A DNA stretch of 13,089 bases from a virus (lineage: Duplodnaviria > Heunggongvirae > Uroviricota > Caudoviricetes): positions 1 through 13,089 of IMG/VR virus record IMGVR_UViG_2531839006_000011; one strand, written 5' to 3'. Positions 7,883 through 13,089 of this stretch are shown here, piece by piece. Under the pieces are notes generated by a model. The model was not told the origin of the DNA, ran no database searches, and was given only the letters and a program-made list of their open reading frames with translations. Position numbers and translations under genes: made by a program. Position 1 is the first letter of the stretch. Each line of letters opens with the position of its first letter.

Positions 7883-8127
7883 AGATGAAAGAGCTGGTTC
7901 CCGGTCTGCTGAGCTGTCCCGGGGTACCGCCAGCCTGCCAGCGGAAGGCGGTGGACCTCGTTAACCGGTTTCGTCGCGGGGAGAGGAATTACCATGAACT
8001 GAAGGAAAAGGGATTCGGGTATATCAAGATTAATGTTGGTCCGGACTGGCGGTTACTGAGCAGGAACCGGGGACAAACCTGGGCGCTGTTGAGTCACGAG
8101 CGATACAACAATATGAGACTGAGGTAG
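7879..8127 (+). CDS. Hypothetical small protein (82 aa) with RelE/ParE-like C-terminal signature
   Basis: C-terminus WRLLSRNRGQTWALLSHERYNNM fits the RelE/ParE pattern of two beta strands ending in a His/Arg-x-Arg-x-Tyr region. The family call is by-eye inference only. Confidence 0.55.
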   Translation: MKMKELVPGLLSCPGVPPACQRKAVDLVNRFRRGERNYHELKEKGFGYIKINVGPDWRLLSRNRGQTWALLSHERYNNMRLR

Positions 8128-8133
8128 AGCAAA

Positions 8134-8310
8134 ATGACTGATTTTGGTTCAACTAAATATAACGCCAGTTTTGAAGAATGGCATGAAGTGTTAATGGACT
8201 ATGCCGGGTTACGTGGTGGAAGTGCCGCCGATGCCGAAGCATGGCGCGATGACTATGAAGCTGGAAAAACGCCTGTCGAAGCATATTGCGATGAGTGGGG
8301 TGATGAATGA
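8134..8310 (+). CDS. Small highly acidic hypothetical protein (58 aa)
   Basis: ATG 8134 with GAGG about 9 nt upstream; 15 of 58 residues are D/E against 5 K/R/H; its TGA (8308-8310) overlaps the next ATG (8307-8309). Confidence 0.5.
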   Translation: MTDFGSTKYNASFEEWHEVLMDYAGLRGGSAADAEAWRDDYEAGKTPVEAYCDEWGDE

Positions 8311-8519
8311 GCAAAATTGACTATCAGGAGCTGCGTGAGGCGGCAGAAAAGGCAATGCATGACGACTGGGGATTTGACACGGACCTTTTCTATGAGCTGG
8401 TAGAACCATCGATTGTGCTGGCTCTGCTGGATGAATGCGAGACGCTGGCAACTGAGAATGCGAAGCTGAAGACAGCACACCCTCAACTGTTCGGGAAAGC
8501 TGAAGGAGCGACAAAATGA
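8307..8519 (+). CDS. Ea22-like small protein (70 aa)
   Basis: MSKIDYQELREAAEKA...SIVLALLDECETLATENAKLK resembles the LREAAEKA / LALLDE motifs of lambdoid-prophage Ea22-like proteins (recollection). ATGA overlap with the next gene at 8516-8519. Confidence 0.6.
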   Translation: MSKIDYQELREAAEKAMHDDWGFDTDLFYELVEPSIVLALLDECETLATENAKLKTAHPQLFGKAEGATK

Positions 8520-8737
8520 GCAAGCCAACCGACGAAGAAATAGTTCGGGTGTTGGAAGAACACGGGCGCTGTATGACTTACGTCGTGACCAACTGGCTTA
8601 GGGATAAATATCGCACACTCAAAACGGCATACGTTTTGCGTCGTCTAAAGAAACTGGAGTTCGACGGGAAAGTAAAGCGCGTTAACAGTTCTTATATAAG
8701 ACAAATTTGCTGGGAGGCAACCAGTGAGCGAGATTGA
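8516..8737 (+). CDS. Small basic protein, possible winged-helix DNA-binding protein (73 aa)
   Basis: C-terminal YVLRRLKKLEFDGKVKRV resembles a wHTH recognition helix plus wing. ATG at 8516 overlaps the upstream stop. Confidence 0.5.
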   Translation: MSKPTDEEIVRVLEEHGRCMTYVVTNWLRDKYRTLKTAYVLRRLKKLEFDGKVKRVNSSYIRQICWEATSERD

Positions 8738-9323
8738 TTATCAGGCGCTACGGGAACGTTATTCACCTAAGCCAGTACCTGAATGCTCTGTTTGTGGCGA
8801 GGAAATGTCAATACAGCGCATATCTGGAGCACATGTTGTTTATGCCTGTTCCGGTGAGGGTGATGACGGATATTTTAAGATAGGGCGTACTTTTGCAGAC
8901 GAACATTATGAAGAATCACGCGTAACAGTAGTTGATGATAGTGATCCCGATGTGATTGCACTACTGGACGAACTGGAGGCAGCAAAATCAAAACTCAACG
9001 AGCAGCGTGAATATTACGAGGGAGTAATCGCGGATGGGAGTAAGCGTATTGCAGAACTGGAAGCACGGGAAATAAAACCAGCCAAAGGCGAAGTTCTTGT
9101 CGTTGTATCTGGTTTTACTGGTTGCGGAAAAAGCGCCATTGCCGGGGAAATAGAAATCGCGATGAAGGCTATTGGTGTGCCGGTTCTATGGACTAATGGC
9201 GATGCGGAAAAGCGCATGACAGGAGCTGACTGGCTGACAGCGATTGAGATGTACAAACCAAATGTGCGCATCGTGGAAGTTAATGTGCCACGCGTCGCTG
9301 GCATTCGCACCAAAGGAGAGTGA
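8724..9323 (+). CDS. Ea22-like N-terminus / Cys-cluster / coiled-coil / C-terminal P-loop protein (199 aa, GTG start)
   Basis: GTG at 8724 with GGGAGG 6 nt upstream. N-terminus MSEIDYQALRE parallels the 8307 ORF; Cys cluster CSVCGEEM...YACSGEGDDGY; VIALLDELEAAKSKL; Walker A-like SGFTGCGKSA. Confidence 0.55.
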   Translation: MSEIDYQALRERYSPKPVPECSVCGEEMSIQRISGAHVVYACSGEGDDGYFKIGRTFADEHYEESRVTVVDDSDPDVIALLDELEAAKSKLNEQREYYEGVIADGSKRIAELEAREIKPAKGEVLVVVSGFTGCGKSAIAGEIEIAMKAIGVPVLWTNGDAEKRMTGADWLTAIEMYKPNVRIVEVNVPRVAGIRTKGE

Positions 9324-9324
9324 T

Positions 9325-9840
9325 ATGGCGTTAACACACCGCGAACTCTGTCAGATTGCGTACAAGTTCCTTAAGCGCAACGGGTTCAAGGTTTGTTTTC
9401 ATGACCGCTTTATAGCTGTAACCAGTACCGGAGAACAGCCAGATGCTATGGGATTCAGAAATTCAGCATCATGCCTGATAGAGGCGAAATGTTCTCGTGC
9501 TGACTTGTTGGCAGATAGAAAAAAGCGTTTTCGTAAAAATCCATCTCTTGGAATGGGCGACTGGCGATTCTTTATTAGTGAGCCGGGAATTATTTCAATT
9601 GAGGATTTACCACCTGGCTGGGGATTACTTCACGTTGTTAACGGAAGAGTACGGAAAGTACATGGGTGGCCCAGGGGTAATTGCTGTTGGGGTAATCCTG
9701 ACGATAAGCCATTTACTGGAAATAAGCAGGTTGAATGCGATTACATGTTATCTGCATTAAGGCGCATGGAGTTGAGAGGGCACCTTAATGAAATATATGA
9801 CGGTGTAATTGTTAATAAGAAAGAAGGAAACGCAGCATGA
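9325..9840 (+). CDS. PD-(D/E)xK nuclease-like protein, MmcB-like (171 aa)
   Basis: AAAGGAG SD before ATG 9325. Motifs GEQPDAMGF ... LIEAKCSRADLLADRKKRF fit a D...E-x-K nuclease core as in the MmcB/DUF1052 family (recollection). Confidence 0.6.
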   Translation: MALTHRELCQIAYKFLKRNGFKVCFHDRFIAVTSTGEQPDAMGFRNSASCLIEAKCSRADLLADRKKRFRKNPSLGMGDWRFFISEPGIISIEDLPPGWGLLHVVNGRVRKVHGWPRGNCCWGNPDDKPFTGNKQVECDYMLSALRRMELRGHLNEIYDGVIVNKKEGNAA

Positions 9841-9977
9841 TCACTATTACCAAAGAGCGACTGCTGACAATCCAGCAGTGGCGCGAAACATACGGACCTG
9901 GTAGCAACGTTGTATTGCCAGCAGAAGAAGCGGAAGAACTGGCACGAATTGCACTGGCATTGCTGGAAGCAGAACCG
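9837..9977 (+). repeat. About 141-bp direct repeat, copy 1 (5' module of a paralogous gene pair)
   Basis: Hand alignment to 10668-10808 gives 9 mismatches in 141 bp; similarity ends abruptly after the module. Confidence 0.8.
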
Positions 9978-10235
9978 CTGGTGCCCGTCATGTATAAAGG
10001 AATGAAACTGTTAACAAAAGAGGGGCTTGAGCTTATTCGTGACGGTATTGCTGAGGCTACAGGACTGGAAGCAATGTGTATGGCTGAGGCTTTGCTGTCT
10101 GGGGCGTCAGTGCCGTCAGTGCCAGAAGAAATGTATTGGCAGGATGCGCCTGTTGGAGGCAGTAGCAAAGCAGCTGCATACGCGACAGGCTGGAATGCCT
10201 GTCGCGCCGCAATGCTTCAGGGAAAAGGAAAGTGA
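9837..10235 (+). CDS. Hypothetical protein, paralog A of a shared N-terminal module (132 aa)
   Basis: ATGA overlap with the upstream gene; the first 47 aa are near-identical to the ORF at 10668 and the C-terminus is unrelated. Confidence 0.6.
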   Translation: MITITKERLLTIQQWRETYGPGSNVVLPAEEAEELARIALALLEAEPLVPVMYKGMKLLTKEGLELIRDGIAEATGLEAMCMAEALLSGASVPSVPEEMYWQDAPVGGSSKAAAYATGWNACRAAMLQGKGK

Positions 10236-10236
10236 T

Positions 10237-10458
10237 ATGGCTAACTCGTTACTTGAAACCTGCAACAACTGGCAGATTCAGAGGGCGGAGATTTTATCTC
10301 GCAATCCAGATATGGCAATGACAATTGATAATCTGGACACGCTAATTGAACGGACCGTGCGTTCTGCAATTGATATAGCACATCGAGTGGATTGGGATTT
10401 CAGAGAAGCGGAGCGGCTTGCTAAAGAGCAGGAGAAAGCAGCGGGTAAAGGAGACTGA
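10237..10458 (+). CDS. Hypothetical small protein (73 aa)
   Basis: ATG 10237 follows the upstream TGA (10233-10235) with AAGGA upstream; its stop abuts the next ATG at 10460. The track's longer 10027 start overlaps the upstream gene and was not used. Confidence 0.5.
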   Translation: MANSLLETCNNWQIQRAEILSRNPDMAMTIDNLDTLIERTVRSAIDIAHRVDWDFREAERLAKEQEKAAGKGD

Positions 10459-10459
10459 T

Positions 10460-10657
10460 ATGGATAAAAACACCACTGCTTACTGGAATCTGTCACTTGA
10501 TACCGAATGCCCAAAATGCGGTCACAATTTCGATCTGCTTTGTGATCCAGATTTCTGGGAATTTTCTGGAGCAAAACAGGCATGTGAAGAAATAAAAGGT
10601 TACGAAACATGCTGTCCAGAATGTAACCATGAATTTAAAACAGATTTTGTGTATTGA
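10460..10657 (+). CDS. Small zinc-ribbon-like protein (65 aa)
   Basis: Two Cys pairs, CPKCGHNF and CCPECNHEF, spaced as in a zinc ribbon; ATG at 10460. Confidence 0.55.
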   Translation: MDKNTTAYWNLSLDTECPKCGHNFDLLCDPDFWEFSGAKQACEEIKGYETCCPECNHEFKTDFVY

Positions 10658-10667
10658 GGCATAACAA

Positions 10668-10808
10668 ATGACCACTATAACCAAAGAGCGACTGCTGACA
10701 ATCAAGCAGTGGCGCGAAACATACGGACCGGGTAGCAACGTTGTACTGCCAGCAGAAGAAGCGGAAGAACTGGCACGGATTGTACTGGCATCGCTGGAAG
10801 CGGAACCG
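10668..10808 (+). repeat. About 141-bp direct repeat, copy 2
   Basis: See copy 1 at 9837-9977. Confidence 0.8.
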
Positions 10809-11081
10809 GTGGCGTGGATGTGTGATGACGAAGATGGTCGTGAATATAACGGTCATAACGAGTTTTCTTATGGAAGACGCGGGATTCCCCTTTACGCCGT
10901 CCCGCCAGCGCCGAATGGATTGGTTAAAGCCGTAGCTTTCTATGAGCAGGTTAAACGTGAAAATCCGCCAGTTGAAACGGGAGCATGGAAAGACGCCGTT
11001 GACTGGGTGCTTAAACAAGCTTGTCAGGCTGTAAACACTGGCATCAATGAAAGAAGAACAATTGAAGAAAATGATGATTGA
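10668..11081 (+). CDS. Hypothetical protein, paralog B of the shared N-terminal module (137 aa)
   Basis: ATG 10668 with GAGG about 8 nt upstream; N-terminus MTTITKERLLTIKQWRETYGPGSNVVLPAEEAEELARIVLASLEAEP differs at 4 of 47 positions from the 9837 ORF. Confidence 0.6.
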   Translation: MTTITKERLLTIKQWRETYGPGSNVVLPAEEAEELARIVLASLEAEPVAWMCDDEDGREYNGHNEFSYGRRGIPLYAVPPAPNGLVKAVAFYEQVKRENPPVETGAWKDAVDWVLKQACQAVNTGINERRTIEENDD

Positions 11082-11129
11082 GCCGGAAGCAGCAAAAAAG
11101 CGCATTGCAGAACTGGAGGAGCGCCGGTC

Positions 11130-11345
11130 ATGAGAAAAATCAGTGGAATGTTGAACCTGGAGAAGGCCAGGATGCAGTTGCGTGTTTTGTTATCAGGACC
11201 GGTTCCTGCGATCACTCCGATGTCGCATGCCGTGGCAATTAAAGTTGTGCCTGATGCTCCGGATGCGAGTGAGCGGAGGGTGGCTGAACTGGAACAGGCC
11301 TGCGCTGCCGCGGGCATTCGTATCAAAGGGGAACAAGTGAAATGA
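11130..11345 (+). CDS. Hypothetical small protein (71 aa)
   Basis: GGAGGA about 9 nt upstream of ATG 11130; its stop overlaps the next ATG (ATGA at 11342-11345). Confidence 0.45.
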   Translation: MRKISGMLNLEKARMQLRVLLSGPVPAITPMSHAVAIKVVPDAPDASERRVAELEQACAAAGIRIKGEQVK

Positions 11346-11563
11346 AACTGAAGATGCAGGCAATGGACGGCCCGGTGATTATAGAGAGTAGTGATGTGAC
11401 ACAGTTTTACCCTGACCATGAAAGTGGCGGGGAACTCACCGCTGTTGAGTACCTTGCTGACGGGGGAAGAATCACCGCGAGGGTGAGGCACTCTTTTTAT
11501 CAGGTTGCTGCGGCACTTGCCGGGGCATGGCGTGCGGATGATGCATCAAAAAGCGGTGGGTGA
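11342..11563 (+). CDS. Hypothetical small protein (73 aa)
   Basis: ATGA-coupled to the upstream ORF; last gene of the small-ORF train. Confidence 0.45.
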   Translation: MKLKMQAMDGPVIIESSDVTQFYPDHESGGELTAVEYLADGGRITARVRHSFYQVAAALAGAWRADDASKSGG

Positions 11564-11823
11564 GGACTGTGCCGGAATGATTGTCTGTTCCGAAGCTGCT
11601 GAACCGCGACATAAATTTTTTATGTTGCGGTGAAGCAGCCGGCAAACGAAGAGCGTCAGCGTATCAACAGTTAAGGAAAATATCTTCTGAAGCCGGACGC
11701 GACAGTCAGTCCGGTGGTGCTCGTGTGGTGAAGTGTTTAGCCTGCATCTTTGACAGGGTTCAGTTATAAGCATTTCGGAAACCGTTCCCCGGCGCAGTCT
11801 GCCGGGATTTAAGGAGTTTATTT
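11564..11823 (+). promoter_or_regulatory. Structured 260-bp intergenic region upstream of the Rep-like gene (inverted repeats, iteron-related 11-mer, strong SD)
   Basis: Inverted repeats CCGCGACATAAA / TTTATGTTGCGG (11604-11630), CCGGAC / GTCCGG (11693-11714) and CCCGGC / GCCGGG (11788-11806); TTCGGAAACCG at 11774-11784 recurs inside the downstream gene (12644-12654); AAGGAG before ATG 11824. The track ORF here (11581-11769) is rich in rare codons. Confidence 0.4.
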
Positions 11824-13089
11824 ATGGCGCTACCTGCAGAAAGCCTTATTGCGCATACGCTCAGAAAAATGAAGGCCAGCATGGCAGAGAAAGCCAGTCG
11901 TGAGGACGGGAGGATACGCAGTGGGCTGTTGTTTACCGGCAATGTTCACGATTCGTATCCCCGCAGGCTGTTGCTGGATACGCGCCTTTCTCCCCTTGAT
12001 AAAACTGCGTGGATGATGATTCGTCTGCATGCCCTGAATAATGAGGGCGCAGTATTTCCGACGTACGATGAACTGCAGTTACAACTGGCATCTCCCGGGT
12101 GCGGGAAGGCGTCCCGTGAAACAGTGAGCCGGGTGCTGACAATGCTGCGGCTTACGGGCTGGCTGAGTCTGTGTAAGCGGGTCAGGGATGAAAAAGGGCG
12201 GGTCCGGGGGAATATTTACGCCCTGCATGATGAGCCACTGACCTGCTGTGATGCAGAAAAGTTTGACCCACGATACCTGGATATGGTTCTGGATACTGTG
12301 AGCAGGAGCCGGAACAAGACAATCCGGCACACAGCCAGTGAAGTGCTCAGTGATATCAAAAATGAGCCCGGTATGCGGCATTACCACAGCCATATCACTC
12401 TGTTTGAATCGCGTATGGGGGCAGCACAGACACCTGGTCAGCTGGCGGCGCGTCAGCGGGTGAACCCGATGGTGAATGAAAACACAGGCAGAGAGAGTGG
12501 TTCGGATTCCGTACATACCCCTGCACCTGTCGTGCAGGTAACCGAACTCAGTGCTCCGTTAACCGAACTCAGTGAAAAACAGGAAATGAGCCCACTCAGT
12601 TCGGATTCCGTACCGCCTGAAAAATCAGTAACTTATCACTCGGTTCGGAAACCGAACAATTACGTACGTAATATCACACACAGTGTGATTAAAAATACGT
12701 ACGTATTGCCTGAGTCGGTGAAATCGCAAATCAGCACAGAAGACACGGACATGCTGACAAAACAACTGCAGGCGTTGCCGGAAGAACTGGCAGGTAGTGT
12801 GCTGAGCAGCCTGTCACAGATGCTCAGCAAAAACACGCTCCAGAATCCGGTTGGCTGGATGCTGGCTGTGATGAAACGTGCGCGTGAGGGAAGTTTTAAT
12901 ACGCCGGATATGTCCGTGCATGAATCCCGGTCGCCAGCCCGTGCACCATATCAGCCTGTGTACAACCGTGATGAACGTGAACGTCGTCGCAGGAAAGTGG
13001 CGTCACCTGAAACGGTGAGCAACATTGTCGCAGAATTCCGTGCCAGCCTGAAACGTGCAAATGCTGCCCGTCTGGCGGCGCGTGTTTGA
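11824..13089 (+). CDS. Winged-helix DNA-binding protein, candidate replication initiator (421 aa, complete; TGA at 13087-13089)
   Basis: N-terminal region LSPLDKTAWMMIRLHA...GKASRETVSRVLTMLRLTGWLS...GRVRGNIYALHDEP looks like a wHTH initiator/regulator domain; a central low-complexity linker is encoded by iteron-like DNA repeats; basic C-terminus. The replication role is inferred. Confidence 0.7.
   Translation: MALPAESLIAHTLRKMKASMAEKASREDGRIRSGLLFTGNVHDSYPRRLLLDTRLSPLDKTAWMMIRLHALNNEGAVFPTYDELQLQLASPGCGKASRETVSRVLTMLRLTGWLSLCKRVRDEKGRVRGNIYALHDEPLTCCDAEKFDPRYLDMVLDTVSRSRNKTIRHTASEVLSDIKNEPGMRHYHSHITLFESRMGAAQTPGQLAARQRVNPMVNENTGRESGSDSVHTPAPVVQVTELSAPLTELSEKQEMSPLSSDSVPPEKSVTYHSVRKPNNYVRNITHSVIKNTYVLPESVKSQISTEDTDMLTKQLQALPEELAGSVLSSLSQMLSKNTLQNPVGWMLAVMKRAREGSFNTPDMSVHESRSPARAPYQPVYNRDERERRRRKVASPETVSNIVAEFRASLKRANAARLAARV
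12496..12706. repeat. Iteron-like repeat cluster inside the Rep-like CDS (candidate origin or operator array)
   Basis: Exact 15-mer GTTCGGATTCCGTAC twice (12500-12514, 12599-12613); exact 13-mer ACCGAACTCAGTG twice (12541-12553, 12562-12574); GGTTCGG-AA-ACCGAAC at 12642-12657; TACGTACGTA twice (12661-12670, 12696-12705) flanking ATCACAC-aca-GTGTGAT (12673-12689). Confidence 0.5.

What the first reader, a model, noticed from the sequence alone, without database searches (positions are those of the whole stretch)
11771..12706. Iteron-like repeats embedded in a winged-helix Rep-like gene, with a related site upstream: candidate origin inside its own initiator gene
Within about 210 bp of the coding sequence the 6-mer GTTCGG or its complement CCGAAC occurs six times, embedded in longer exact repeats: a 15-mer GTTCGGATTCCGTAC twice, a 13-mer ACCGAACTCAGTG twice in the opposite orientation, and an inverted-repeat site GGTTCGG-AA-ACCGAAC. 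These are followed by an AT-rich segment with TACGTACGTA twice around a 7-bp inverted repeat. The 11-mer TTCGGAAACCG also occurs at 11774-11784, about 40 bp upstream of the start codon, as expected for an autoregulatory operator. The repeats encode a low-complexity linker (TELSAPLTELSEK, SGSDSVH / SSDSVP) between a wHTH-like N-terminal domain and a basic C-terminal domain. Phage lambda carries its origin iterons inside the O initiator gene in the same way (established knowledge). The element also encodes its own DnaB-family helicase, so this could be its vegetative replication origin and initiator, distinct from the ParA/ParB module.
Basis: partly seen in the sequence, partly recalled or inferred. 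Interest (0 to 1): 0.72.

Follow-up and report, generated by a model that had tools for sequence, protein, structure and literature searches.

The report
Candidate ICE origin inside initiator gene
A cluster of short palindromic DNA sites followed by an AT-rich hairpin-forming stretch lies in the part of a mobile-island gene that encodes a floppy protein linker; it is conserved as DNA from E. coli to Pseudomonas and is most likely the island's own replication origin, placed inside the gene of its initiator protein as in phage lambda and some staphylococcal plasmids, an idea already proposed for this island family but never tested.

Summary
Six GTTCGG/CCGAAC hexamers lie within 158 bp (12500-12657), and a 33% GC inverted repeat follows (12661-12705). 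The window is the left end of an E. coli SPI-7/PAPI-1/pKLC102-type ICE, and the gene is an NCBIfam 'STY4528 family pathogenicity island replication protein'.

Comparison shows the constraint acts on the DNA:
- The unit is a 15-17 bp palindrome, (A/G)GTTCGG-N3-CCGAAC. It occurs 3-5 times at about 44/54 bp spacing at the same place in the gene in relatives down to 30% protein identity. pKLC102 has four perfect copies.
- The palindrome is read in up to three reading frames.
- Synonymous codons are frozen there (82-85% same codon, against 48-55% in the flanking domains).
- The sites lie entirely in DNA that encodes a predicted disordered linker.

The N-domain is a winged helix. It gives weak PHROG 'replication initiation O-like' matches, and its best fold matches are DnaD, Gram-positive DnaB and RepA_N. 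In ICEclc the ParB-like BisD does not bind the equivalent site.

The most likely reading is the iteron plus unwinding core of a theta-type origin inside its own initiator gene, as in lambda O and pSK41 Rep. The same palindrome was published in 2009 as a 'putative oriV' of PFGI-1, so this is a new member of a known kind. Origin activity is untested. The upstream 11-mer 'operator' is not conserved.

The parts
11824..13089 (+). Gene for a 421-aa STY4528-family protein, the putative initiator
   Evidence: It matches NCBIfam NF040582 with E 4e-117 and 391.9 bits against a cut-off of 130. RefSeq gives it the same name in identical E. coli loci.
11824..12459 (+). N-terminal folded domain (aa 1-212). 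It contains a winged helix at aa 57-134 (nt 11992-12225) and a putative recognition helix at aa 98-110 (nt 12115-12153).
12460..12684 (+). DNA that encodes the predicted disordered linker (aa 213-287). It holds the whole palindrome array.
   Evidence: pLDDT is 31-46 across aa 213-287. Among identical residues, 0.82-0.85 keep the same codon here, against 0.48 and 0.55 in the flanking domains.
12500..12514 (.). Site 1, GTTCGGATTCCGTAC: a 6-N3-6 palindrome with one mismatch in the right arm
   Evidence: Other lineages have a perfect palindrome at the aligned position.
12539..12574 (.). Two direct copies of TAACCGAACTCAGTG (12539-12553 and 12560-12574, 21 bp apart), each an isolated CCGAAC half-site
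   Evidence: The CCGAACTCAG flank matches the outer part of the published 23-bp PFGI-1 palindrome CTGAGTTCGGAATCCGAACTCAGT.
12599..12613 (.). Site 2, GTTCGGATTCCGTAC: a palindrome with one mismatch
12643..12657 (.). Site 3, GTTCGGAAACCGAAC: a perfect palindrome, read in a different frame (V-R-K-P-N) from sites 1 and 2
   Evidence: It is nearly invariant at nucleotide level across five E. coli lineages.
12658..12708 (.). AT-rich inverted repeat (arms 12661-12682 and 12684-12705; TACGTACGTA at both ends). It is a candidate DNA-unwinding or hairpin element.
   Evidence: GC is 0.31-0.33. Folded as single-stranded DNA it gives -14 kcal/mol, z -5.4. An AT-rich inverted repeat follows the last palindrome in nearly every lineage, with different arm sequences. 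22 of 23 synonymous-capable codons are identical between the window and L046.
12691..12903 (+). C-terminal helical domain (aa 290-360) with the conserved NPxG(W/Y) motif. I infer that it interacts with a partner protein, possibly the helicase.
   Evidence: pLDDT is about 90. The domain is conserved across the family. The function is inferred only.
11774..11784 (.). It is probably a chance match.
   Evidence: It is present. It is absent from the homologous upstream regions of L045-L048.
3539..4945 (+). Island-type replicative DnaB helicase (dnaB-PI), a likely partner of the initiator
   Evidence: Pfam DnaB_C gives 1e-89 and DnaB 2e-34. RefSeq names it 'SPI-7-type island replicative DNA helicase'.

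Best explanation
The segment 12500-12708 is the core of a theta-type vegetative replication origin of an SPI-7/PAPI-1/pKLC102-family integrative conjugative element. It lies inside the gene of the element's own initiator.

Shown here:
- The DNA carries an array of dyad-symmetric sites, (A/G)GTTCGG-N3-CCGAAC(C/T), followed by an AT-rich inverted repeat of about 45 bp.
- This arrangement is conserved as DNA, not as protein, across the family.
- It lies exactly in the stretch that encodes a disordered linker between a winged-helix N-domain and a helical C-domain.

Inferred:
- After excision and induction of the operon, dimers of the N-domain bind the palindromes and oligomerise, as the lambda O-some and pSK41 Rep do.
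- This distorts the DNA and opens the adjacent AT-rich repeat.
- The C-domain recruits the element-encoded DnaB-type helicase.
- The element's SSB and topoisomerase III then assist replication.

The 36-bp tandem array that begins one base after the window ends is a separate, parS-like element. It is probably a loading or partition site and not the initiator's target.
For: 1. The constraint is on the DNA.
- The palindrome recurs 3-5 times at the same gene position in four other E. coli lineages (61-81% aa identity), with spacings of 54/45/44 bp. It is translated in two frames there: G/S-S-E/D-T/S-E-P/L and V-R-K-P-N.
- pKLC102 of P. aeruginosa is about 30% identical in protein. It has four perfect GTTCGG-N3-CCGAAC sites at gene nt 675/719/773/817, read in all three frames.
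- In 112 distinct loci the 400-bp linker region holds a mean of 4.2 seventeen-bp palindromes, against 0.55 in an N-domain control. 91 of 112 loci have 3 or more, against 1 of 112 in the control.
- Among identical residues the same-codon fraction is 0.82-0.85 in the site and AT-rich region, against 0.48 and 0.55 in the flanks. For a single pair it is 22/23 against 90/178, Fisher P 2e-5.

2. The anatomy is origin-like.
- The last palindrome is followed in nearly every lineage by the lowest-GC stretch of the gene. GC is 0.2-0.36 in genes of 0.52-0.64.
- That stretch is itself an inverted repeat whose arms differ between lineages: TACGTACGTA..., GTACGTACTTT..., and GTAGTAGTAGT...ACTACTACTAC. The last of these produces the peptide SSS...TTTT.

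3. The protein is initiator-like.
- A Pfam HTH_36 N-domain supports replication in the staphylococcal plasmid pPR9.

4. The recognition helix and the half-site vary together over about 8 clades.
- ASRET goes with GTTCGG, including pKLC102.
- ASKST goes with GTTCGA.
- ASRGT goes with GTTCGC.
- xxAT or xxAS goes with (A/C)TTCAA.

5. The context fits.
- dnaB-PI, ssb, topoisomerase III, a 'STY4534 family ICE replication protein' and ParA are in the same module.
- pKLC102 is reported to reach up to 30 extrachromosomal copies. Its listed genes show no classical Rep initiator in the 100 kb examined.

6. There are precedents for exactly this layout: ori-lambda inside gene O, and the pSK41 Rep boxes inside rep, with the linker they encode dispensable.

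7. The same palindrome was proposed as the oriV of PFGI-1.

8. The main rival binder is excluded in a relative. In ICEclc, CTTCGGAtTCCGAAG inside orf96323 does not recruit the ParB-like BisD. orf96323 occupies the position after bisD-bisC.
Against: - There is no direct evidence of binding or of origin firing, here or in any paper I could read. The published 'oriV' calls are sequence inspection only.
- In ICEclc, multiplication of the excised element depended on the TraI relaxase and oriT1. That points to rolling-circle replication, so a theta origin may not be needed.
- The window's own array is degenerate, with one perfect site out of three plus two half-sites.
- The window protein itself does not reach any Pfam threshold, and its PHROG O-like match is weak at E 0.0036.
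- The helix/half-site association is confounded by phylogeny and has exceptions. L104 and L111 share the helix but differ at the inner base.
- Citrobacter-type relatives (L003-L007, L012) lack a clear array of this kind.
- Plasmid pPant4 carries the module together with another annotated Rep gene, so the module is not evidently sufficient there.
- Mavrodi et al. stated that PFGI-1 encodes no Rep protein.
Confidence: 0.55

Rival explanations
1. The sites are operators. The winged-helix protein, or another island regulator, binds the intragenic palindromes to control transcription (autoregulation, a roadblock, or timing of the transfer-competence operon) and does not start replication.
Against: Operators normally lie at promoters, not 700 nt inside a gene. 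The proposed upstream operator is not conserved. An AT-rich inverted repeat is always attached to the array. The sites sit in the linker-coding DNA, as in lambda O and pSK41 Rep. The gene lies in a replication-gene neighbourhood.
Confidence: 0.15
2. The palindromes are real binding sites, but for a different island or host protein. Candidates are the PFL_4669-family protein encoded downstream, the STY4534-family protein, or a host factor. The position inside this gene would then be incidental.
For: No binding data exist. The helix/half-site association is confounded by phylogeny and would be seen for any co-inherited protein. The PFL_4669-family gene always follows.
Against: The array keeps its exact position in the linker of this one gene over very large divergence, with the gene's N-domain as its best-conserved part. 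The ASRET helix and GTTCGG are retained together in E. coli and pKLC102 despite about 30% overall identity.
Confidence: 0.1
3. The AT-rich inverted repeat is a single-strand initiation signal (sso/ssi). It would fold as a hairpin on the transferred or displaced strand to prime complementary-strand synthesis, with the palindromes as accessory sites.
For: Hairpin potential is strong: -14 kcal/mol, z -5.4 in the window and -11 kcal/mol, z -4.7 in a Pseudomonas relative. Arm sequences change between lineages while complementarity is kept. ICE replication through the relaxase and oriT would need such a signal.
Against: Both strands fold equally well, so there is no strand asymmetry. In pKLC102 the hairpin is weak (-3.6 kcal/mol, z -1.8). 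This reading does not explain the palindrome array or its place in an initiator-like gene.
Confidence: 0.07
4. The array is a centromere or clamp-loading site (parS/bisS-like) for the island's ParB-family protein.
For: It is a palindromic array spaced at about 44 bp, reminiscent of plasmid centromeres. A ParA and a ParB-family protein are encoded in the window.
Against: In ICEclc the equivalent site (bisS-3, CTTCGGAtTCCGAAG in orf96323) gave no BisD foci, whereas the true bisS sites did. A far better parS-like candidate lies immediately downstream: 23 copies of a 36-bp unit carrying TGTTGGCAgTGCCAACA. Its half-site changes between lineages while GTTCGG stays fixed.
Confidence: 0.05
5. The repeats are only a by-product of duplicated peptide motifs in a low-complexity linker, or arose by chance.
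For: The linker is predicted to be disordered. In the window two of the repeats are exact duplications that encode SDSV and TELS.
Against: The same DNA palindrome is read in two or three frames and gives unrelated peptides. Peptide repeats have no reason to be encoded by reverse-complement-symmetric DNA. Synonymous sites are frozen. Chance clustering arose in 1 of 1000 simulations.
Confidence: 0.02

Closest known systems
Phage lambda O protein and ori-lambda (from my own knowledge, also P22 gene 18 with its DnaB-like gene 12 helicase)
   Same: The origin lies inside the initiator gene, in the part between the DNA-binding N-domain and the C-domain. There are four dyad-symmetric sites followed directly by an AT-rich stretch of about 40 bp. 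The N-domain gives weak PHROG 'replication initiation O-like' matches. As I recall for P22, the element brings its own DnaB-type helicase.
   Different: There is no Pfam Phage_rep_O match. The sites are 15-17 bp at about 44/54 bp spacing, not 18-bp iterons packed closely. The AT-rich part is itself a long inverted repeat. The host element is a conjugative island, not a phage. No lambda P-like loader was identified.
RepA_N plasmid initiators of Firmicutes (pSK41 Rep)
   Different: There is no Pfam RepA_N match. The host phylum differs. I recall the pSK41 boxes as direct repeats, not palindromes. The pSK41 CTD binds DnaG primase, whereas here the partner is unknown.
Published 'putative oriV' of PFGI-1, pKLC102, ICEHin1056, SPI-7 and PAPI-1
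   Same: It is the same element. PFGI-1 has four copies of CTGAGTTCGGAATCCGAACTCAGT in an A+T-rich half, then a second array of inverted-repeat-bearing direct repeats upstream of PFL_4669. pKLC102 shows both arrays, and so does the E. coli island.
   Different: In the papers I could read, the two arrays were treated as one non-coding-like oriV, PFGI-1 was said to encode no Rep, and nothing was tested. Here the first array is placed inside the linker-coding DNA of an initiator-like gene and is separated from the parS-like second array.
ParB/parS-type systems, including BisD/bisS of ICEclc
   Same: These are palindromic sites inside coding DNA of the same island module. BisD loads at 23-bp palindromes that lie inside inrR and ssb.
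   Different: The ICEclc counterpart of this site was tested and does not recruit BisD. The sequence is unrelated to bisS or to the Pseudomonas parS consensus TGTTCCACGTGGAACN quoted in that paper.
Iteron plasmids with Rep_3 initiators (F, R6K, pPS10, RK2 class)
   Same: Repeated initiator-binding sites lie next to an AT-rich unwinding region, and the initiator is a winged helix.
   Different: There is no Rep_3 match. From my own knowledge, iterons in that class are direct repeats outside the rep gene.

Membership tests
NCBIfam NF040582, STY4528 family pathogenicity island replication protein | HMM score above the curated cut-off of 130 bits | tested here: met
   The score is 391.9 bits, E 4e-117, over residues 33-359. 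RefSeq gives identical loci the same name.
SPI-7/PAPI-1/pKLC102/ICEclc-type ICE replication-partition module | Synteny parA ... dnaB-PI - ParB family (TIGR03764) - DUF2857 - STY4528 family - repeat array - PFL_4669 family - topoisomerase III / ssb | tested here: met
   window; downstream genes in the identical RefSeq locus; pKLC102.
Published putative oriV of the PFGI-1/pKLC102 family | Repeated palindrome with a GTTCGG-N3-CCGAAC core in an A+T-rich stretch upstream of the PFL_4669 homologue | tested here: met
   The window has one perfect and two one-mismatch palindromes plus two half-sites with the TCAG flank. The motif is identical to the one printed. A PFL_4669-family gene lies downstream.
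Published putative oriV of the PFGI-1/pKLC102 family | A second array of direct repeats, each with an inverted repeat, between the STY4528-family gene and the PFL_4669 homologue | tested here: met
   There are 23 copies of a 36-bp unit with TGTTGGCAgTGCCAACA, starting one base after the window ends. pKLC102 has 15.2 copies of a 57-bp unit. This array lies outside the window.
Lambda O-type initiator with an internal origin | Sequence membership in Pfam Phage_rep_O or an O-like family | tested here: inconclusive
   There is no Pfam match. PHROG 'replication initiation O-like' gives E 0.0036 for the window protein and 1.9e-5 and 4.6e-5 for relatives; a 'replication initiation protein' PHROG gives 1.7e-6 for a relative.
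Lambda O-type initiator with an internal origin | Repeated dyad-symmetric sites plus an adjacent AT-rich stretch inside the initiator gene, in the inter-domain linker | tested here: met
   The lambda layout is described.
Lambda O-type initiator with an internal origin | The N-domain binds the sites, and the segment supports initiator-dependent replication | not testable with these tools
   This needs EMSA or footprinting and a replication assay.
RepA_N plasmid initiators | Pfam RepA_N (PF06970) domain | tested here: not met
RepA_N plasmid initiators | The origin repeats lie centrally within the rep gene and encode a linker | tested here: met
.
Pfam HTH_36 (PF13730) winged-helix proteins | A match to PF13730 | tested here: inconclusive
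   The window protein gives no match at E up to 0.01. 62 of 76 aligned family members match, with a best E of 3.8e-11.
Rep_3 iteron plasmid replicons | A Rep_3 domain and direct-repeat iterons outside the rep gene | tested here: not met
   There is no Rep_3 match. The sites are palindromes inside the gene.
ParB/parS or BisD/bisS loading sites | Specific recruitment of the ParB-family protein to the site | not testable with these tools
   A published experiment on the ICEclc counterpart (bisS-3 in orf96323) was negative. The equivalence of orf96323 to this gene is inferred from synteny and motif.

The most novel reading that the evidence does not exclude
The STY4528 family would be a third, proteobacterial lineage of 'origin inside the initiator's linker' replicons, alongside lambdoid O proteins and Firmicute RepA_N proteins. 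It would give SPI-7, PAPI-1, pKLC102 and ICEHin1056-type islands a true theta-type, self-encoded replicon (initiator, own DnaB, SSB and topoisomerase III), separate from relaxase-driven rolling-circle copying. In this family the DNA symmetry of the origin dictates the protein sequence: QNL(N/K)S repeats come from the palindromes and SSS...TTTT comes from the inverted repeat. The adjacent variable 36-57 bp array would be a separate incompatibility or partition determinant.
Probability: 0.45. Interest if true: 0.6.

Novelty: new member of a known kind. Interest (0 to 1): 0.45.

Why it matters
Islands of this family carry the Vi capsule locus (SPI-7), virulence genes (PAPI-1) and antibiotic resistance (ICEHin1056, pKLC102 relatives). 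Some of them persist as multicopy episomes. How they replicate outside the chromosome is unsettled. The literature offers an untested 'putative oriV' and, for ICEclc, relaxase-dependent copying.

This analysis pins the candidate origin to about 210 bp and names its probable initiator. It also separates the origin from the neighbouring parS-like array. Together these make the question directly testable with a mini-replicon, EMSA and synonymous recoding. The locus is also a clear example of a cis-acting DNA element shaping the amino-acid sequence of the protein that overlaps it.

Tried and rejected
- A profile search of the family against PDB sequences found nothing meaningful; the best E was 0.25.
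- The first AlphaFold2 run, with a shallow alignment, was too poor to use (mean pLDDT 55). A second run with 76 diverse sequences gave usable domains.
- Foldseek against viral models returned only generic 'HTH domain' proteins.
- DnaA boxes are not enriched: 13 one-mismatch matches against 10.2 expected. One lies in the AT-rich repeat at 12684-12692.
- tblastn of the N-domain against phage genomes hit only two unannotated metagenomic 'Bacteriophage sp.' contigs and one Salmonella record.
- I looked for plasmids that carry this gene as their sole initiator. Pantoea pPant4 has another annotated Rep, so it is uninformative. pKLC102 shows no classical Rep in the 100 kb examined, but the PLSDB gene tables are incomplete.
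- The pKLC102 paper (Klockgether 2004) is not held in the library. My statement that its 'oriV' refers to the 57-bp repeats rests on memory plus the Tandem Repeats Finder result.
- I rejected the upstream operator idea because the 11-mer is not conserved.
- I rejected the peptide-repeat explanation on the frame and synonymous-site evidence.
- I considered testing ParB against the second array for covariation. I did not pursue it, because all island proteins co-vary with lineage.
Full report
**What the window is.** The window is the left end of a chromosomal E. coli island of the SPI-7/PAPI-1/pKLC102/ICEclc type.
- It encodes ParA (1604-2482), a DnaB-family helicase (3539-4945), a ParB-family protein of the TIGR03764 'ICE_PFGI_1_parB' type (4893-6584), DUF2786 and DUF2857 proteins, and several small ead/Ea22-like genes.
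- The gene in question (11824-13089) also belongs to this module.
- Nucleotides 11500-13089 are 100% identical to many E. coli chromosomes.
- There RefSeq calls the gene 'STY4528 family pathogenicity island replication protein' and the helicase 'SPI-7-type island replicative DNA helicase'.
- Downstream in those records come a PFL_4669-family ICE protein, topoisomerase III, a 'STY4534 family ICE replication protein', SSB and the type IV transfer genes.
- The NCBIfam model matches with E 4e-117.

**The observation.**
- GTTCGG or CCGAAC occurs six times between 12500 and 12657.
- A cluster of that size for any hexamer arose in 1 of 1000 Markov simulations of the whole window.
- The following stretch, 12649-12708, has the lowest GC in the gene at 0.33.
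- That stretch is a 22-nt-arm inverted repeat bounded by TACGTACGTA.
- As single-stranded DNA it folds at -14 kcal/mol with z -5.4.

**The real unit, and the evidence that the constraint is on DNA.**
- In four other E. coli lineages (protein 61-81% identical) the same hexamers cluster at the same place in the gene. There they form 15-bp palindromes, GTTCGG-N3-CCGAAC, in 3-5 copies spaced 54/45/44 bp.
- The window's array is a partly decayed version. It has one perfect palindrome (12643), two with one mismatch (12500, 12599) and two isolated half-sites in a 21-bp direct repeat (12539, 12560).
- The palindrome is translated in two frames in E. coli, as xGT TCG Gxx xCC GAA Cxx and as GTT CGG AAA CCG AAC.
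- In pKLC102 of P. aeruginosa the protein is only about 30% identical, yet four perfect copies lie at gene nt 675, 719, 773 and 817. They are read in all three frames, as EFGIRT, SSDAEL/SSDAEP and VRMPN.
- More distant relatives keep an array at the same position with altered half-sites. AGTTCGA occurs in Pseudomonas and Xenorhabdus, AGTTCGC in Azotobacter, and AGTTCAA, ACTTCAA or GTACAG in uncultured Gammaproteobacteria.
- Over 112 distinct loci, the 400 bp after the N-domain hold on average 4.2 seventeen-bp palindromes, against 0.55 in the N-domain control. 91 of 112 loci have three or more, against 1 of 112 in the control. These loci are not phylogenetically independent.
- A nucleotide alignment of the five E. 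coli lineages is almost invariant from the last palindrome through the AT-rich repeat, while the flanking coding DNA shows ordinary synonymous drift.
- Among identical residues the same codon is used in 82-85% of cases in aa 259-297, against 48% in the N-domain and 55% in the C-domain. For the single pair window versus L046 the counts are 22/23 against 90/178, P 2e-5.

**The AT-rich inverted repeat is conserved as a structure, not as a sequence.**
- In nearly every lineage the lowest-GC 45 nt of the region directly follow the last palindrome and form an inverted repeat.
- The arms differ between lineages. They are TACGTACGTAAT... in Enterobacterales, GTACGTACTTT... in Pseudomonas, and GTAGTAGTAGT...ACTACTACTAC in distant lineages.
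- In the distant lineages the two arms are translated as Ser-Ser-Ser and Thr-Thr-Thr, because AGT and ACT are reverse complements. This explains the family's odd 'SSSxYxxKKTTTTT' peptide. The DNA symmetry is dictating the protein.

**The protein.**
- With a 76-sequence alignment, AlphaFold2 gives two confident folded parts (aa 1-212 and 290-360, pLDDT about 90).
- These are joined by a segment predicted to be disordered (aa 213-287, pLDDT 31-46). That segment corresponds to nt 12460-12684 and so contains the whole palindrome array.
- The N-part contains a winged helix (aa 57-134).
- Generic winged-helix repressors follow closely, so this fold evidence is suggestive only.
- The window protein gives a weak PHROG 'replication initiation O-like' match (E 0.0036). 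Relatives match O-like and 'replication initiation protein' PHROGs at 1e-5 to 1e-6, always through the N-domain.
- 62 of 76 relatives match Pfam HTH_36. An HTH of this Pfam family forms the N-domain of the functional Rep of plasmid pPR9.
- No sequence match to any solved structure was found.

**Who binds the sites?**
- The start of the putative recognition helix varies together with the inner half-site over about eight clades. ASRET goes with GTTCGG, in Enterobacterales and also in the very distant pKLC102. ASKST goes with GTTCGA, ASRGT with GTTCGC, and helices with Ala at the third position go with (A/C)TTCAA.
- This fits self-recognition, but it is confounded by phylogeny and has exceptions.
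- The main alternative binder, the ParB-family protein, has been tested in a relative. In ICEclc a 'candidate bisS-3', CTTCGGAtTCCGAAG, lies inside orf96323 and did not recruit mCherry-BisD. The true bisS sites (GAGCTATCCCCnGGGGATAGCTC, in inrR and ssb) did recruit it.
- orf96323 follows bisD-bisC, just as the STY4528-family gene follows the ParB-family and DUF2857 genes in pKLC102. I infer from synteny and motif that the two genes are equivalent. I could not check this by sequence.

**A second, different array.**
- One base after the window ends, the identical RefSeq locus has 23 tandem 36-bp units, each with the 17-bp palindrome TGTTGGCAgTGCCAACA. RefSeq annotates this stretch as a hypothetical protein.
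- pKLC102 has 15.2 copies of a 57-bp unit with TGGTGCCAcTGGCACCA at the same place.
- Other lineages have TGGTGGCA, TGCTGCCA, TGATGGCA or TGATGCCA versions.
- This array changes its half-site even between E. coli lineages that share an identical initiator recognition helix and GTTCGG sites. It therefore probably serves another protein. It resembles parS or centromere arrays.

**What is already known.**
- Mavrodi et al. (2009) described a 'putative oriV' of PFGI-1 'immediately upstream of PFL_4669'. They reported four repeats of the palindrome CTGAGTTCGGAATCCGAACTCAGT in an A+T-rich first half and four 46-bp repeats in a second half. [quoted passage not shown]
- Juhas et al. (2007) mention iteron-like putative oriVs for ICEHin1056, pKLC102, SPI-7 and PAPI.
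[quoted passage not shown] Its listed genes include no classical Rep in the 100 kb examined.
- None of these origin assignments was tested experimentally in the papers I could read.
- For ICEclc, multiplication of the excised element required the TraI relaxase and oriT1.
- The layout 'origin inside the initiator gene, encoding a dispensable linker' is established for ori-lambda in gene O (four 18-bp iterons plus a 38-bp AT-rich stretch) and for pSK41 Rep (four Rep boxes centrally within rep).

**Conclusion.**
- The repeats are a genuine, strongly conserved cis-acting DNA element. I am about 95% confident of that.
- The best-supported reading is the iteron plus unwinding core of a theta-type origin inside the gene of an O/RepA_N-like initiator. 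I put this at about 0.55.
- Binding by the gene's own N-domain, opening of the AT-rich repeat and recruitment of the island's DnaB are inferred, not shown.
- The upstream 'operator' is not supported.
- The idea of an origin here is not new for the family. What this analysis adds is the placement in the linker-coding DNA of an initiator-like gene, the frame and synonymous-site evidence, the covarying inverted repeat, and the separation from the downstream parS-like array. I rate it a new member of a known kind, of moderate interest.

Noticed in passing
L001 15591-16417. This starts one base after the window ends and would be window 13090-13916.: There are 23 tandem 36-bp units (consensus TGGTTAAAAAATGTACGGTGTTGGCAGTGCCAACAG), each with a 17-bp parS-like palindrome. 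RefSeq annotates the stretch as an 831-nt 'hypothetical protein', probably an artefact of the in-frame repeats. Equivalent arrays with different half-sites occur in other lineages: 57-bp units in pKLC102, and TGGTGGCA, TGCTGCCA, TGATGGCA and TGATGCCA elsewhere. This is a candidate partition, clamp-loading or incompatibility site.
   Followed up: partly
L013, L019, L031, L032, L034 and L041, about 350-460 nt after the GNIYALHDE motif: In distant relatives the AT-rich inverted repeat has arms GTAGTAGTAGT / ACTACTACTAC. These are translated as SSS and TTTT, so a conserved-looking peptide motif (SSSxYxxKKTTTTT) is a by-product of DNA symmetry. The xQNL(N/K)S peptide repeats likewise come from the palindromes.
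   Followed up: partly
window 4893-6584, 6442-7308 and 7305-7778: A ParB-family protein (TIGR03764) is followed by DUF2786/DUF7168 and DUF2857 proteins. The DUF2857 protein has a weak FlhD-like match. This looks like the BisD/BisC transfer-competence activator pair described for ICEclc. Its loading site in this E. coli island is unknown.
   Followed up: no
window about 1462-1512, and 1-1263 (- strand): About 50 nt just upstream of parA read as the 3' part of a tRNA gene on the minus strand. The identical RefSeq locus annotates a tRNA at the corresponding place (L001 3961-4038). ARAGORN finds no complete tRNA in the window. To the left of it the window has a P4-type integrase, where the RefSeq strain has an IS110 remnant and kps genes. 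The island boundary, or a tandem island, therefore seems to lie here and differs between strains.
   Followed up: partly
window 11728-11773: A block upstream of the gene (GTGAAGTGTTTAGCC ... TTATAAGCATTT) is kept in the other E. coli lineages that have an intergenic region (L045, L047, L048), unlike the 11-mer next to it. It may be the gene's promoter.
   Followed up: no
window 12684-12692 (- strand): TTAATCACA, a DnaA-box-like 9-mer with one mismatch, lies inside the AT-rich inverted repeat. Such matches are not enriched in the window (13 found, 10.2 expected).
   Followed up: partly
L003-L007 (Citrobacter, Buttiauxella and Atlantibacter loci), gene nt about 630-750 and about 20-300 nt after the stop codon: These relatives lack the GTTCG-type array. 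Instead they have GAGACTAAGCC three times (two direct, one inverted) in the linker. They also have a separate AT-rich intergenic region with 33-35 bp repeats after the gene, and TGATGCCAnTGGCATCA palindromes further on. The origin-like features may have moved outside the gene in this branch.
   Followed up: partly
window 7879-11563; L001 10380-14064: There is a run of many small ORFs, including ead/Ea22-like genes. Several are marked frameshifted or partial in RefSeq. This suggests a decaying or rapidly changing accessory segment between the regulator genes and the initiator gene.
   Followed up: no
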